Of a stretch of 44,198 nt of DNA, positions 12,472 to 31,829 are shown piece by piece (positions within the stretch are counted from its first letter, which is position 1; every line of letters begins with the position of its first letter). Position numbers and translations under genes: made by a program. This DNA comes from Escherichia phage vB_EcoS-EE09. The notes below the pieces were generated by a model, which was given only the letters and a program-made list of their open reading frames with translations, made no database searches and was not told the DNA's origin. The DNA is taken from sequence record OR756193.1; one strand, given 5' to 3'.

Positions 12472-15036
12472 TCATCGTTTGTAAAGTACACCACCTGGTT
12501 TAGTCGCTTTCACGATCTCGGACTTCACCGCCTCGGTGATTTGCTTGCCGAACGCCTGCGCGGTACGGACGCCAGACGCGGCAACGCCCAGTTTTCCGTC
12601 TGGCCCGCGCTTCAGTGGCATGATGGCCTCGGGTCCCGCCTCCCCCATCAACCCCGCGCCCTTAGCGAACGCCTGGACGCCATAACTGAAAAAGGTAGGC
12701 TGGCTTACCACTTTCCCCGAATAGGCCGCGAGATTGCCTCCTGCGTACGCTCCGCCGTCCGCATTCTTGGTGAGGCCCGAGAAGATAGCGCCGAACAATC
12801 CGTTTTTGCCGCCGTCGCCACCAAAAGCGCTAACGATCGACTTGAAAGCCTGCGAGGTAGCCAGCTTGATTAATTCGCTCAGGATGGACTTAACCATATC
12901 CTTTGCGTTCAGCTTGCCCGTCTCGAAAAACTCGTTCATCGTGTCTTGCATAGCGCTGAACGTGAATTTTGTGAGCGTCGTCATCTGCGTATATCCGTTA
13001 CCCATATCATCCACACTATCCTTAAGCCCGCGGCTGAAGCCATCCCATAGCGAGGCGTTAGCTCCGGTCTGTGCTTCCTGCACTTCGCGCAGCTTAGACA
13101 CCGCCTTGTCTATATCGGTATCGTTAGCGCCAACCCGCTTCAGGCGATCAATTAGCTGCAATTCTTCGCGCAGGTTTGCCGCTTCGCGAGTGGAAAGCGC
13201 ATACCCCGCGGCGGTGGCTTTTAGTTCGGCGTTCTGGTTCTTAACGAAGGCATCGATCTGCGCGTGCGCCTTAACCTGCTGCTCTTTCGCATCCAGCAAT
13301 TTGGCTTCTTCGACGATCTGCTCGCGGACTTCCTTCACGCGCCCGAACTCGACTAATTGCTGCTTTTCTGCTGCCGTTAGTGCTCTTTCTTTGCTCGCAG
13401 CGATTAACTGCTCATTGTCGGCGATCAGCTTGTTTAAGGCCGCTTGAGCGCGTTGCGTGCGGGTCTGCGTAGACGCGTTGGCTTCGATCTGCTTGCCGGA
13501 TTCTCGAAGCTGGGCCAGTTCGCTCCGTGCGACTTCCAGCATTTTCATACCGGCATCCACGCGAACAGCCGCGGCCTTTTTCGGGGCTGGGTCTTTGTAC
13601 CGCTCGTTTACCTGCTTCACCGCCTCGGCTAGTTCTTTCTCATCAATAACGCCGCGCTTATTCAGCAAATTGAGGCGGGCGATCTCGTCGGCGCGCTTCT
13701 TAGCGTTGGTGGCGTATTCCTTCTCGAACGCGGCGCGGTCACGGGCAGTGCGGTTGGCCTCCTCGTTCGCCTTTGCGGATTCGTCTGCGGCGCGGGCGTT
13801 GTCTCGCTCAGCACGGTTACGCAGGGTTAGCGACGCCACCACTTTTTCCTGGGCGACCAGTTCGCTGTAAAGCATGTTAATACGTGCTTTCTGCGCTTCA
13901 GTCATTACCCCACCGGCAGCGTTTACCGCTTTCATCTCGGCATAGTAAGCCGTGGTCAGCCGCTGCAGTGATTCGCGCGCTTTCATCTCGGATTCATTGG
14001 AGGACTGCGCGCGACCCACATCCAGGATAGCGTCCCACATCGATTTGGCTGCCGATGTGACGACGTTCATCGACCGCTCAAGCGTACCCATGTTCGCCTT
14101 GATCTCATTGGTCATGCTGGTGAACGACGCAGCGGCTGTTTTGTTAGCCAACGCAACTGCGTCTGTCTCACGACCCGCATCAACGAGCGACTGTACCTGC
14201 TGGATCTGCGCTTCGTTTACGACGTGATACTTATCCGCCAGCGCACGCAGTCCGCCAACGGGGTCGGTTGACAGCTTCGCCACCGCCGCTACCACATCCT
14301 CGATCGGCTGGCTTGATACCTTCGCGAAGTCATTCACTACCTTTGCCAATGCGCCGAAGTCACCACCCGCTTTCACACCCGCCGCCGCCAGTGCCTGGAT
14401 TGTGTCACGCGTCTTGCGGAATGACCCGCCCATGCGCTCGGCGTTCTCGGATAACACCAGGATCTGGTTTGCCGTTAGGCCGGAAATATTACCGGAAAGC
14501 GCCAGCGTCTTGTTAAGCGCGGCGACCTGGTTCTCTGCGCGGGACGTAATTGCCACGCCCACGCCTAACGTTGCCGTTACCGCAGCGAGGCCAACCCCTA
14601 CTGGGCCGAGGAAGCCCGCAACATAACGCAGCGTGTTACCCAATCCACCGAACGCCCCAGTTAGCTGCGGTAACTGCTGAAGCATGACGCGGTGAACAGG
14701 CATCCCCATCTCAAGCGTAACTGCGATATCCTGTAACTGGAATGCGGCGTTACGCGAGGCAAAGCCCAGGTTTTTGGTCGACATGCCTAACCTGTTGGCA
14801 AGTCGCTCCTGTTTCGTCATGCCATCGGCGGCGCGCTGCGATTCAGTCGCCAGCTTCTCCATTCCGCCCGCGGCGTCACTCGTCACCTTTTTGGATTTGC
14901 CGAGTGTGTCGTTTAATTTCTTAACCTTGTTTTCTGTGTTCTCGGATTTCTGTGCGAATGAATCAAGCACAGTATTCGCCGTTCTGATTTGTGCAACATC
15001 CGCCTTTAGCGTGATGCCTGCTGCTTGATCTGCCAT
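12472..15036 (-). CDS. tail tape measure protein (854 aa)
   Basis: Long alpha-helical, Ala/Lys/Glu-rich protein with a glycine-rich C-terminal region, upstream of M/L/K/I/J-like genes. Confidence 0.85.
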   Translation of the reverse strand: MADQAAGITLKADVAQIRTANTVLDSFAQKSENTENKVKKLNDTLGKSKKVTSDAAGGMEKLATESQRAADGMTKQERLANRLGMSTKNLGFASRNAAFQLQDIAVTLEMGMPVHRVMLQQLPQLTGAFGGLGNTLRYVAGFLGPVGVGLAAVTATLGVGVAITSRAENQVAALNKTLALSGNISGLTANQILVLSENAERMGGSFRKTRDTIQALAAAGVKAGGDFGALAKVVNDFAKVSSQPIEDVVAAVAKLSTDPVGGLRALADKYHVVNEAQIQQVQSLVDAGRETDAVALANKTAAASFTSMTNEIKANMGTLERSMNVVTSAAKSMWDAILDVGRAQSSNESEMKARESLQRLTTAYYAEMKAVNAAGGVMTEAQKARINMLYSELVAQEKVVASLTLRNRAERDNARAADESAKANEEANRTARDRAAFEKEYATNAKKRADEIARLNLLNKRGVIDEKELAEAVKQVNERYKDPAPKKAAAVRVDAGMKMLEVARSELAQLRESGKQIEANASTQTRTQRAQAALNKLIADNEQLIAASKERALTAAEKQQLVEFGRVKEVREQIVEEAKLLDAKEQQVKAHAQIDAFVKNQNAELKATAAGYALSTREAANLREELQLIDRLKRVGANDTDIDKAVSKLREVQEAQTGANASLWDGFSRGLKDSVDDMGNGYTQMTTLTKFTFSAMQDTMNEFFETGKLNAKDMVKSILSELIKLATSQAFKSIVSAFGGDGGKNGLFGAIFSGLTKNADGGAYAGGNLAAYSGKVVSQPTFFSYGVQAFAKGAGLMGEAGPEAIMPLKRGPDGKLGVAASGVRTAQAFGKQITEAVKSEIVKATKPGGVLYKR

Positions 15037-15094
15037 TATGCAGTCCCCTTTTTTATGCAGTTGCCGGTTGACATTGTATCAGCGAATTTAAAAC

Positions 15095-15420
15095 AAACCT
15101 TATTCAGTCTCAGACGAGGGGGGCCGTTGACCCCCGTCTAGTCTGAAAGACTGGAGTTTGTCCCGCCTGTCCCGATCGGCTGAAAACCGCGGCAGCACTG
15201 GCGGGGACGGGGTGCTGTCCCGCTTTGTCCCGCCCCTGGTCTGTCCCGCTTTCTGTCCCGTTTGGTTTATGCAGATTTCGTGCATAGGTATGCACACTTA
15301 GAGGGTGGGACAAAGCGGGACGTCCCGCCTGTCCCGCTTTGGGTTTATGCAGTGGGAGTGAGTAGATATGCAGTTTTACAGAGGCGGGACAAAACGGGAC
15401 GTCCCGCCTGTCCCGCTTCA
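15095..15420. repeat. non-coding structured element: hairpin plus arrays of GTCCCGC direct and inverted repeats
   Basis: Hairpin AGACGAGGGGGG-ccgttga-CCCCCGTCT, then at least eight GTCCCGC units (for example GGGACAAAGCGGGACGTCCCGCCTGTCCCGC) and recurring TTTATGCA; a diverged second copy lies at about 31670-31800. Confidence 0.7.
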
Positions 15421-16097
15421 TTATGCGGGGTTCTGCTGCGCCATCTCATCAAGCGCGATTCGCTCCATTAGCTTGATATCTTTAAACGCGCGCTGCTCGT
15501 TTTCGATACCGTGCATCTTAAATAACCACTCCAGCACGCCGTAGTCGATGCCGTATGCGCCACCAAAACCGGTGCGCCATTGCGTGGAACAATCTGTGAA
15601 GACTGCGACTACCTTCGCGTTGTCGGGCCATAGCGCAACAGGCGGACAAACATCTTCGGGGGCCGCACCCCATAAACTTGCGGCTAAATCTTCGGAGGGT
15701 GGCGGCGGGCCATAAAAGCGTCGCGCCGCCTCAATTAGTTTTTTTCACGCAACCCCATCAGTTCGAGATAGTACGACGTGTGGAACACACCGAACGCGCG
15801 TGGATAGTTGACCACCAGGCGGCGGACGTTCTCCGCGTTAAATTCGTCCGGCAGATTCCAGCCTTCTGCGACGTGCATGATGGCCTCGACCATAACGTTA
15901 AAGCCGTCCGGGTCATTGTCGTCATATTCCGACAACTTGCGCTCCGTGTCCTGCATGGTCTGCGAAAATTCGTCGATAGGGCGGTGGCGTACTGTAAACG
16001 TCATTTTGCCCGGTTCGTTTTCGCCTGGGCGCGGGATCTCAATCGGCAGCTTAAAGGTAGGCTTAGGGTCAAGTGTGAAAAGTGGTGCTTTAGCCAT
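15421..16097 (-). CDS. tail assembly chaperone GT fusion, made by programmed -1 ribosomal frameshift
   Basis: G frame ends ...CGT GAA AAA AAC TAA; the slippery heptamer A-AAA-AAC (plus-strand T7 run at 15739-15745) opens a -1 frame that stays open for about 105 codons to TAA at 15421-15423 and has no start codon of its own near its 5' end. Confidence 0.7.
15735..16097 (-). CDS. tail assembly chaperone, lambda G-like (120 aa)
   Basis: ORF track trimmed to the ATG with RBS GGAGA 8 nt upstream; sits between major tail and tape measure genes. Confidence 0.75.
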   Translation of the reverse strand: MAKAPLFTLDPKPTFKLPIEIPRPGENEPGKMTFTVRHRPIDEFSQTMQDTERKLSEYDDNDPDGFNVMVEAIMHVAEGWNLPDEFNAENVRRLVVNYPRAFGVFHTSYYLELMGLREKN

Positions 16098-16109
16098 TGT
16101 AGTATTCTC

Positions 16110-16137
16110 CAATAAAAAAAGGGGCCGTGCAGGCCCC
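16110..16137 (-). terminator. rho-independent terminator after the major tail protein gene
   Basis: GGGGCC-tgcac-GGCCCC hairpin followed by a T7 run on the minus strand. Confidence 0.75.
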
Positions 16138-16167
16138 ATATTATCACTCGCTATTTAAGCGACCAAA

Positions 16168-16893
16168 TCAAGACAATGCCTCGACCAGATCCTTACGGTA
16201 GATAACCATATCAGACTGCATGGTCAGAGTGGACTCCACCGTCTCCACGTTGTTTACTTCAGCCGATGGAATCTTCTGGAAAGACACCTTAGCCGGGTAA
16301 ATGCGGATCTCACCTTTGCCGCTTGCCGCTGCCGGGTTAGTGAACTTAATCACAGTGGTTTTCTGTGTGTCGTCCAGGTCTTCCAGAATCGGGCGGATCG
16401 GGTCTTCTTCGTCATGGGTGAAGGTGTAAGTCTGGACCAACGGGTTTTTCGTGGTATTCAGACTAATCGCGGTATTCACCTGCAACGGCTGGAAGGTAGT
16501 AGTCTGCTGGTCGCCACCAGACACGGCGACGTTAGTGATAAACGGGAAGTCGATAAAGCTCGACACCTTCACCACTTCGCCTGGTGTGCCTACGCCGAAA
16601 GCACCGGTCGGGTATTTGGTGACGTCCGAGGTGTCGAAGCGCGCCAGTGTAACAGCGTTCTCGGCTACTTTACCCACGATGAACGCGCGGTTCAGCGCAC
16701 GTACCCACGGGGTTTTAGTGAACATAACAACGTCGCCTACAACCAGGCCATGCGAAGCCGCGCAGGTAATTACGCAACCTTGCGTAAGGTCAGAGATCGA
16801 CGCGGCAGCGTTGGTAGCTGCCGTAACAGCGATGCCGCTGCCAAGTACGGACCCAATCTGGACGCTAGACCCGTTAGGAAGTTGATAACCCAT
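16168..16893 (-). CDS. major tail protein (241 aa)
   Basis: ORF track trimmed from a GTG to the ATG with RBS AGGAG 8 nt upstream; followed by a strong terminator then G/GT, the usual major-tail arrangement. Confidence 0.7.
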   Translation of the reverse strand: MGYQLPNGSSVQIGSVLGSGIAVTAATNAAASISDLTQGCVITCAASHGLVVGDVVMFTKTPWVRALNRAFIVGKVAENAVTLARFDTSDVTKYPTGAFGVGTPGEVVKVSSFIDFPFITNVAVSGGDQQTTTFQPLQVNTAISLNTTKNPLVQTYTFTHDEEDPIRPILEDLDDTQKTTVIKFTNPAAASGKGEIRIYPAKVSFQKIPSAEVNNVETVESTLTMQSDMVIYRKDLVEALS

Positions 16894-16954
16894 AATGAAC
16901 ACTCCTGTTTAGATATACGGTTCAATGATACAGCACGCGCAGAATAGCGCCAAA

Positions 16955-31669: not shown

Positions 31670-31800
31670 GGATTTTATTCAGTCTCAGACGAGGGGGGCC
31701 GTTGACCCCCGTCTAGTCTGAAAGACTGGGGTGCTGTCCCGCTTTGTCCCGCCTAGTGTTTGTCCCGCTTTTTGTCCCGTTTGGTTTATGCAATAAAACT
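31670..31800. repeat. second copy of the hairpin plus GTCCCGC-array element
   Basis: TTATTCAGTCTCAGACGAGGGGGGCCGTTGACCCCCGTCTAGTCTGAAAGACTGG...GTCCCGCTTTGTCCCGCC...GTTTGGTTTATGCA matches the copy at about 15095-15285 apart from a roughly 50-bp internal deletion and a few substitutions. Confidence 0.7.
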
Positions 31801-31829
31801 GCATAACTATTCATCTCATCTACACTACA

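What the first reader, a model, noticed from the sequence alone, without database searches (positions are those of the whole stretch)
15421..16097. G/GT tail chaperone -1 programmed frameshift at an A-AAA-AAC slippery site
The G-like gene ends ...CGT GAA AAA AAC TAA. The heptamer A-AAA-AAC (plus-strand T7 run at 15739-15745) lets a -1 slip enter a frame that stays open for about 105 more codons (KKLIEAARRFYGPPPPSEDL...IALDEMAQQNPA) to a TAA at 15421. That extension has no start codon near its 5' end and lies exactly where lambda-like phages encode the T domain. The ORF track cannot show it because it lacks an initiating Met.
Basis: partly seen in the sequence, partly recalled or inferred. Interest (0 to 1): 0.5.

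Follow-up and report, generated by a model that had tools for sequence, protein, structure and literature searches.

The report
Tail chaperone G/GT programmed frameshift site
This is the usual -1 ribosomal frameshift that lets a long-tailed phage make a short and a long tail-assembly chaperone from one gene pair; it is very likely real and is missed in most database records of this phage genus, but it is an ordinary example of a well-known mechanism.

Summary
The window is a Dhillonvirus (HK578-like) E. coli siphophage. On the minus strand a 120-aa gene (16097..15735; Pfam Phage_TAC_4) ends CGT GAA AAA AAC TAA. From the C of AAC the -1 frame runs 105 codons to TAA at 15423..15421 and encodes a DUF1799 domain. 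Its first in-frame start codon is at codon 68.

The -1 frame is closed by TGA immediately 5' of the A-run, so a productive shift can only occur on the heptamer A AAA AAC (15744..15738). The pair sits between the tail tube and tape measure genes.

In 19 distinct Dhillonvirus sequences, third-codon-position variation switches from the G frame to the -1 frame at the junction. The heptamer plus an adjacent stop is kept in relatives of only 30-40% identity: T1-like phages, Serratia phages and metagenome contigs, some with G GGA AAC. Two GenBank records already annotate the join.

A GC hairpin 7 nt downstream lies in the deepest synonymous-site trough of the locus.

Corrections: the proteins are not lambda G/T homologues by sequence, and the canonical junction is ...REKN-LIEAARR, not ...REKK-L.

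Verdict: a new member of a known kind, of low interest. No expression data exist.

The parts
15735..16097 (-). Gene G: 120-aa tail assembly (tape measure) chaperone, stop codon included. SD GGAG at 16110..16107.
15738..15744 (-). Slippery heptamer A AAA AAC in 0-frame phase (Lys119-Asn120), part of an A7 run at 15745..15739.
   Evidence: the only in-phase X XXY YYZ in G. Invariant in 19 Dhillonvirus sequences. Conserved in T1-like, Serratia and metagenome relatives. Same heptamer as the proven IS1 site in E. coli (PMC4066793).
15735..15737 (-). 0-frame stop TAA immediately 3' of the heptamer; a possible stimulator (inferred).
   Evidence: A stop (TAA, TGA or TAG) directly follows AAC in every intact relative examined.
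15745..15747 (-). TGA in the -1 frame directly 5' of the heptamer; it confines productive shifting to the heptamer.
15421..15738 (-). T extension: 105 codons in the -1 frame plus TAA (15423..15421). The GT fusion is complement(join(15738..16097, 15421..15738)), 225 aa, 25.6 kDa.
   Evidence: Pfam DUF1799 E=2.7e-21. phrog_680 E=8.5e-31; phrog_17368 matches both halves. Variable sites 22/10/69 in the -1 frame. First in-frame start at codon 68. Masses.
15701..15730 (-). Putative stimulatory hairpin. The 5' arm GGCGGCG is at 15730..15724 and the 3' arm CGCCGCC at 15707..15701. It starts 7 nt after the heptamer.
   Evidence: MFE -17.1 kcal/mol, z=-2.05, 6 of 200 shuffles as stable. Both arms invariant. 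1 of 16 third positions variable across 15749..15701 against 144 of 225 overall, P=1e-6, the global minimum. Hairpins start 6-7 nt downstream in most relatives. 88.6% of cells paired against 36-58% when slid. Its function is inferred.
16121..16137 (-). Terminator-like hairpin GGGGCC-TGCAC-GGCCCC followed by T7, between the tail tube gene and G. It probably attenuates read-through into G (inferred).
16168..16902 (-). Upstream neighbour: tail tube (major tail) protein gene.
   Evidence: Pfam Phage_tail_3 E=1.4e-33; phrog_584.
12472..15036 (-). Downstream neighbour: tape measure protein gene (854 aa), separated from T by a 384-nt non-coding gap.
   Evidence: Pfam TMP_2 E=1.4e-43 and Tape_meas_lam_C; phrog_24.

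Best explanation
Ribosomes translating the tail assembly chaperone gene G (16097..15735, minus strand) mostly terminate at TAA and release the 14.0-kDa G protein. A small fraction slip one base backwards on A AAA AAC (15744..15738). They then continue in the -1 frame for 105 codons and make a 25.6-kDa G-T fusion that carries a DUF1799 'T' domain.

By analogy with lambda, G and the G part of GT would coat the tape measure protein, and the T part would recruit the tail tube protein. A weak shift site would keep the GT:G ratio low.

The adjacent 0-frame stop codon and a GC-rich hairpin 7 nt downstream probably stimulate the slip.

Shown by sequence analysis: the anatomy, the coding constraint on the -1 frame, conservation of the site, and family membership. 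Inferred: that the slip occurs on the ribosome, its efficiency, the roles of the stop codon and hairpin, and the roles of G and GT in assembly.
For: Anatomy
- The anatomy is exact and the frame overlap equals the heptamer.
- G is Phage_TAC_4 and the extension is DUF1799. The flanking genes encode the tube and tape measure proteins.
- The profile phrog_17368 spans both halves.

Selection and conservation
- Third-position bias switches from the G frame (10/6/75) to the -1 frame (22/10/69) at the junction in 19 distinct sequences.
- The heptamer plus stop is invariant in 18 fetched Dhillonvirus loci and in Tlsvirus, Jhansiroadvirus, Serratia and OzMSK relatives.
- 35 of the 44 non-Dhillonvirus IMG/VR loci have A AAA AAC followed by a stop.
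- Metagenome relatives carry A AAA AAC TAG, G GGA AAC TGA and A AAA AAC TGA.
- Called T-homologue ORFs lose all conservation upstream of the (G/K)KL junction.

Mechanism
- G GGA AAC has no homopolymer run, which argues for ribosomal rather than polymerase slippage across the family.
- Joined CDSs are annotated in Serratia phage Smarc2 and phage OzMSK. A T1-like phage paper states the same (PMC6763657).
- A_AAA_AAC is a proven -1 site in E. coli IS1 (PMC4066793).
- The synonymous-site trough and the hairpin sit at canonical spacing from the heptamer.
Against: - There are no protein or ribosome-profiling data for this phage or genus.
- A AAA AAC is a poor shifter in E. coli, because AAC-to-AAA re-pairing is badly tolerated (PMC4066793). 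The yield could therefore be very low.
- Hairpin support is moderate. The z-score is -2.05. A 106-nt fold is not significant (z=-0.87). Covariation amounts to about one event between clades. The arms also encode conserved EAA and PPP residues, so protein and RNA constraints are confounded.
- The A7 run would allow some transcriptional slippage.
- The HK578 GenBank record treats T as a separate CDS starting at ATT.
Confidence: 0.9

Rival explanations
1. Transcriptional slippage: RNA polymerase adds one A on the A7 run (T7 in the template). Some mRNAs then read GAA AAA AAA CTA and encode GT directly, with the junction ...REKK-LIEAARR.
For: The run is 7 A in Dhillonviruses. Homopolymer runs are known slippage sites (PMC5009743; PMC4066793).
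Against: T1-like relatives have only A6. More distant ones have G GGA AAC, with no homopolymer run, at the same place. What is conserved is the 0-frame phase, the terminal C and the adjacent stop, not the run length. From background knowledge, productive slippage in E. coli usually needs runs of about 8-9 or more.
Confidence: 0.04
2. T is made on its own, either by initiation at the ATT that overlaps the G stop (as the HK578 record annotates it) or by termination-reinitiation. No fusion protein is formed.
For: HK578_016 is annotated as a CDS starting at ATT at the last base of the G stop. The genes abut, as coupled genes do.
Against: The ATT is not conserved: relatives have AAA, ATC or AAG at that codon. 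No SD-like sequence is placed to serve it. The first canonical in-frame start is at codon 68, inside the DUF1799 domain. The heptamer and its phase are what is conserved. The profile phrog_17368 covers G and T together.
Confidence: 0.04
3. The -1 ORF is a decaying remnant or a chance open frame and is not expressed.
For: Most GenBank records of the genus annotate only G, or G plus a 38-aa fragment.
Against: Pfam E=2.7e-21. Third-position bias of 22/10/69 in that frame. The frame is intact in all 19 Dhillonvirus sequences and in relatives of 30-40% identity.
Confidence: 0.01

Closest known systems
Phage lambda G/GT -1 programmed frameshift (Levin, Hendrix & Casjens 1993; Xu, Hendrix & Duda 2004, 2013, 2014, as summarised in PMC5009743)
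   Same: The gene pair lies between the tube and tape measure genes. An in-phase heptamer sits at the 3' end of G. A startless T domain lies in the -1 frame. A short and a long chaperone that share their N-terminal part are expected.
   Different: Lambda uses G GGA AAG, five codons before the G stop. Here A AAA AAC abuts the stop, and the overlap is the heptamer alone. Lambda G and T are PF06894 and PF06223, whereas these proteins are PF08748 and PF08809, with no pairwise similarity. Lambda H follows T directly, whereas here a 384-nt non-coding gap intervenes.
T1-like (Drexlerviridae) and related tape measure chaperone pairs, e.g. T1 gp40/gp39, phage OzMSK, Serratia phage Smarc2, Klebsiella phage Skenny
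   Same: Same Pfam/PHROG families, the same A AAA AAC plus stop signal, the same junction motif (R-x-K-N / L-x-x-A), and a hairpin starting 6-7 nt downstream. The frameshift is annotated or stated for these phages.
   Different: Only 30-42% protein identity. They have an A6 run rather than A7, and the 3' partners of the hairpin differ. Dhillonvirus records do not annotate the join.
IS1 insA-insB' -1 frameshift at A AAA AAC in E. coli
   Same: An identical heptamer in the same host's translation system. It is a proven, low-level -1 shift (PMC4066793).
   Different: It is a transposase rather than a chaperone. No established stimulator is known for IS1, whereas here a stop codon and a probable hairpin follow the site.

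Membership tests
G/GT-type tail assembly chaperone -1 programmed frameshift | The gene pair lies between the major tail (tube) gene and the tape measure gene. | tested here: met
   Phage_tail_3 at 16902..16168 and TMP_2 at 15036..12472 flank the pair.
G/GT-type tail assembly chaperone -1 programmed frameshift | The second ORF overlaps the 3' end of the first, lies in the -1 frame and has no start of its own. | tested here: met
   105 codons in the -1 frame. The first in-frame start is at codon 68. The overlap is bounded by TGA (-1 frame) and TAA (0 frame).
G/GT-type tail assembly chaperone -1 programmed frameshift | An X XXY YYZ slippery heptamer in 0-frame phase lies inside the overlap. | tested here: met
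   A AAA AAC at 15744..15738, the only such heptamer in G.
G/GT-type tail assembly chaperone -1 programmed frameshift | Site and arrangement are conserved in relatives, and the extension is under coding constraint. | tested here: met
G/GT-type tail assembly chaperone -1 programmed frameshift | The upstream protein has the tail assembly chaperone fold or family. | tested here: met
G/GT-type tail assembly chaperone -1 programmed frameshift | Two products are made in a fixed low ratio, both are needed for tail assembly, and both are absent from virions. | not testable with these tools
   Needs expression and genetic experiments.
Lambda gpG / gpT protein families (PF06894 / PF06223) | Sequence homology to lambda G and T. 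| tested here: not met
   Lambda G is PF06894 and lambda T is PF06223. The window proteins match neither at E<=0.1. BLASTP gives E=4.4 for G and E=0.23 for T.
Phage_TAC_4 + DUF1799 chaperone pair (T1-like type) | Both halves score above the Pfam gathering thresholds. | tested here: met
   83.9 bits against a cut-off of 21.1, and 76.0 bits against 26.
Phage_TAC_4 + DUF1799 chaperone pair (T1-like type) | N NNA AAC followed at once by a stop codon at the G/T junction. | tested here: met
   The exception is five loci with A AAG GTC TAA.
Transcriptional slippage sites | A long homopolymer run (typically 9 or more A/T, from background knowledge) that is conserved as a run. | tested here: not met
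   The run is 7 here, 6 in T1-like relatives, and absent in G GGA AAC relatives.
Rfam frameshift elements | A match to a curated RNA family. | tested here: not met
   No match near any gathering score in 14900..16300.

The most novel reading that the evidence does not exclude
The arrangement conserved across this family may be a distinct, deliberately weak, termination-coupled -1 signal. It has three parts: a poor E. coli A-site codon (AAC), an obligatory adjacent stop codon, and a hairpin 6-7 nt downstream. On this reading the shift happens while the stop codon (or a slow AAC) occupies the A site, rather than by classic tandem slippage. In Dhillonviruses the A7 run may add a transcriptional-slippage component. 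The GT:G ratio would then be set by competition between release factor and slippage.
Probability: 0.15. Interest if true: 0.35.

Novelty: new member of a known kind. Interest (0 to 1): 0.18.

Why it matters
The main value is for annotation. In none of the six Dhillonvirus feature tables I opened, including the type species HK578, is the join annotated. T appears as a 38-aa fragment, as an ATT-initiated ORF, or not at all. G is often labelled 'tail length tape measure protein'. Annotating complement(join(15738..16097,15421..15738)) would correct this for a genus of about 157 sequenced phages.

A second, minor point concerns frameshift efficiency. The family keeps N NNA AAC plus a stop, which is a weak heptamer in E. 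coli, rather than A AAA AAG. [quoted passage not shown]

Nothing here changes what is known about tail assembly or recoding.

Tried and rejected
- **Heptamer count.** The heptamer is not enriched in the window (5 found, 7.4 expected). The count alone is therefore no evidence.
- **Genome-wide -1 open frames.** The distribution of -1 open lengths after ORF ends is uninformative, because mechanical ORFs overlap real genes.
- **Long-range fold.** A 106-nt fold downstream of the site is not significant (z=-0.87). Only the local 52-nt hairpin is (z=-2.05).
- **Rfam.** No family matched.
- **PDB sequence search.** Searching with the fusion found nothing.
- **First homologue search.** The fused query returned only 3 hits. 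The profile search did better.
- **Structure of the fusion.** G and T were modelled separately instead.
- **Literature.** Searches for Dhillonvirus or HK578 with 'frameshift' found nothing relevant. The HK578 tail-interference paper does not address the chaperones.
- **Upstream SD-like GGGG (15756..15753).** Considered as a stimulator but not claimed. Only the TGGG part is fixed, and that is explained by Met-Gly codons.
- **103-aa ORF 15421..15110.** Rejected as a gene.

Full report
**1. What the window is**

The G-T region is 99.9% identical to Escherichia phage UHP65. It is 85-97% identical to about 157 Dhillonvirus (HK578-like) records.

On the minus strand the gene order is:
- tail tube protein, 16902..16168 (Phage_tail_3, E=1.4e-33);
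- a terminator-like hairpin, 16137..16121;
- G;
- the T frame;
- a 384-nt gap;
- tape measure protein, 15036..12472 (TMP_2, E=1.4e-43).

**2.

- G starts at ATG 16097, with GGAG nine bases upstream. It has 120 codons and ends CGT GAA AAA AAC TAA, with the stop at 15737..15735.
- The minus-strand A7 run is 15745..15739. The in-phase heptamer A AAA AAC is 15744..15738.
- From the C of AAC the -1 frame reads LIEAARRFYGPPPPSEDL...DEMAQQNPA. It runs 105 codons to TAA at 15423..15421.
- The -1 frame is closed by TGA (15747..15745) directly 5' of the A-run, and the +1 frame is open for only one codon. The heptamer is the only X XXY YYZ motif in phase in G. The two frames therefore overlap only across the heptamer, and a productive shift can happen nowhere else.
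- The first in-frame ATG/GTG/TTG of the extension is at codon 68. That lies inside the domain, so T cannot be made whole on its own.

**3. It is more than chance**

The heptamer alone is not enriched in the window (5 found, 7.4 expected). Position, phase and content carry the evidence.

- G matches Phage_TAC_4 over its whole length (E=1.4e-23). The extension matches DUF1799 (E=2.7e-21).
- One PHROG profile, phrog_17368, matches G with its first half and T with its second half.
- In 19 distinct Dhillonvirus sequences, variable sites by codon position are 10/6/75 in G read in the G frame. They are 22/10/69 in the extension read in the -1 frame. The periodicity switches frame at the junction.

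**4. Conservation of the signal**

- All 18 fetched Dhillonvirus loci have GAAAAAAAC TAA and an open extension of 105-106 codons.
- Relatives at 30-42% protein identity have GTAAAAAAC followed by TAA or TGA, with 101-107 open codons. These are Tlsvirus DanielBernoulli, Vibrio phage Vc1, Serratia phage Smarc2 and phage OzMSK.
- A scan of IMG/VR returned 44 non-Dhillonvirus loci. As I read the patterns, the hits come from an N-terminal G motif, because the junction pattern assumes an in-frame fusion that the DNA does not contain. Under that reading the scan was not biased towards the junction.
- Of these loci, 35 have A AAA AAC followed by a stop, and five have GCA AAG GTC TAA. Three have A5 instead of A6. 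One of those three, L080, also has a frame break elsewhere in G, so these look like homopolymer sequencing errors.
- Three metagenome contigs recovered through T homologues show A AAA AAC TAG, G GGA AAC TGA and A AAA AAC TGA at the G end.
- In an alignment of 19 called T-homologue ORFs, conservation begins exactly at (G/K)KL. Everything upstream is unrelated out-of-frame sequence.

The family-wide signal is therefore N NNA AAC followed directly by a stop codon.

**5. Mechanism**

Ribosomal -1 slippage is the best explanation.

- The 0-frame phase, the terminal C and the adjacent stop are conserved, while the run length is not. It is 7, 6, or none in G GGA AAC. This argues against polymerase slippage as the shared mechanism.
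- A_AAA_AAC is a proven -1 site in E. coli IS1. Re-pairing from AAC to AAA is poorly tolerated by bacterial ribosomes, so the site is intrinsically weak (PMC4066793). A weak site fits the low GT:G ratio known from lambda, about 1:30 (PMC5009743).
- Under tandem slippage Asn is incorporated before the slip, so the junction should read ...GLREKN-LIEAARR.

**6. Possible stimulators (inferred)**

- A stop codon follows the heptamer in every intact relative examined.
- Seven bases downstream, GGCGGCG (15730..15724) pairs with CGCCGCC (15707..15701). The fold is -17.1 kcal/mol with z=-2.05, and 6 of 200 shuffles are as stable.
- Across 15749..15701 only 1 of 16 third-codon positions varies, against 144 of 225 for the whole G-T region. 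The hypergeometric P is 1e-6 for a window chosen after seeing the data, but it is also the global minimum in a sliding scan.
- Most relatives fold a hairpin that starts 6-7 nt after the heptamer, with different 3' partners in different clades.
- On a 22-sequence alignment the common stem is paired in 88.6% of cells, against 36-58% for slid controls. Only two pairs change on both sides, essentially one event between clades.
- The arms encode conserved EAA and PPP residues, so protein and RNA constraints cannot be fully separated.

**7. Comparison with known systems**

- Functionally and architecturally this is the G/GT class.
- By sequence it is not lambda's family. Lambda G and T are PF06894 and PF06223, and BLASTP against the window proteins gives E=4.4 and E=0.23.
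- Lambda's site G GGA AAG lies five codons before the G stop.
- The T model (pLDDT 78) has no informative match.
- The closest true relatives are the T1-like chaperone pairs. Joined CDSs are already annotated there (Smarc2, OzMSK), and the frameshift is mentioned in print for phage Skenny (PMC6763657).

**8. Annotation state in the genus**

None of the six Dhillonvirus feature tables I opened annotates a join. These are JLBYU60, UDS3lw, Opt212, HK578, Ioannina and UHP65.
- Several give only G.
- Some add a 38-aa 'DUF1799' fragment.
- HK578 starts a separate T CDS at the ATT that overlaps the G stop. That ATT is not conserved in relatives, so independent initiation is unlikely.

Literature searches found no paper describing the frameshift in Dhillonviruses.

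**9. Verdict**

This is an ordinary, previously unannotated member of a well-known class of recoding site. Interest is low. No protein-level evidence exists, so the shift itself and its efficiency remain inferred.

Noticed in passing
window 15037-15420 and 31675-31792: The 384-nt gap between T and the tape measure gene is non-coding and packed with short repeats. It holds 9 of the window's 17 CGGGACA copies (6.4 expected genome-wide), and 4 more lie at 31735-31779. Two 36-nt copies at 15304-15339 and 15383-15418 each carry the palindrome GCGGGACGTCCCGC. A 55-nt hairpin-forming element at 15100-15154 is 100% identical to 31675-31729. The segment 15209-15273 is 91% identical to 31728-31792. This is a repeated intergenic module of unknown role. 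T1-like relatives have no such gap.
   Followed up: partly
window 15110-15421 (-): A 103-aa ATG ORF starts on the T stop codon (TAATG). It has no Pfam or PHROG match, and it is broken by stops or indels in most relatives: its length ranges from 11 to 106 codons across 20 sequences. It is probably not a gene.
   Followed up: yes
window 15036-15060, 15267-15274, 15345-15352, 31799-31806: The motif CTGCATAA occurs 7 times in the window against 1.25 expected. Four copies lie in the T-to-tape-measure gap, and one of these overlaps the tape measure start codon (CTGCATAATG). Another lies beside the second CGGGACA cluster.
   Followed up: no
window 16121-16137 (-): A strong terminator-like hairpin (GGGGCC-TGCAC-GGCCCC followed by T7) lies between the tail tube gene and G. 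The mechanical ORF list starts 'G' inside it at ATG 16139. The real start is 16097.
   Followed up: partly
L074, L076-L079, about position 1506: Five T1-like IMG/VR loci replace A AAA AAC TAA with GCA AAG GTC TAA at the same place, with the T frame unchanged. A AAG is the most shift-prone tetramer in E. coli. These loci may therefore shift one codon earlier on a single tRNA-Lys, giving ...QRAK-GLKRAVY.
   Followed up: partly
L060, L061, L080, about positions 1505-1509: Three contigs have GTAAAAAC (A5) instead of A6, which puts T in the +1 frame. L080 also has another frame break in G, and the L060 protein is nearly identical to Vibrio phage Vc1, which has A6. These are probably homopolymer sequencing errors rather than biology.
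   Followed up: partly
Public records: HK578 JQ086375 10795-11109; UHP65 PQ511047; PHROGs 569, 680 and 17368: There are annotation problems in public data. The HK578 record starts T at ATT. Several records and the PHROG labels call the chaperone G and its T domain 'tail length tape measure protein'. The T frame is often annotated only as a 38-aa fragment.
   Followed up: yes
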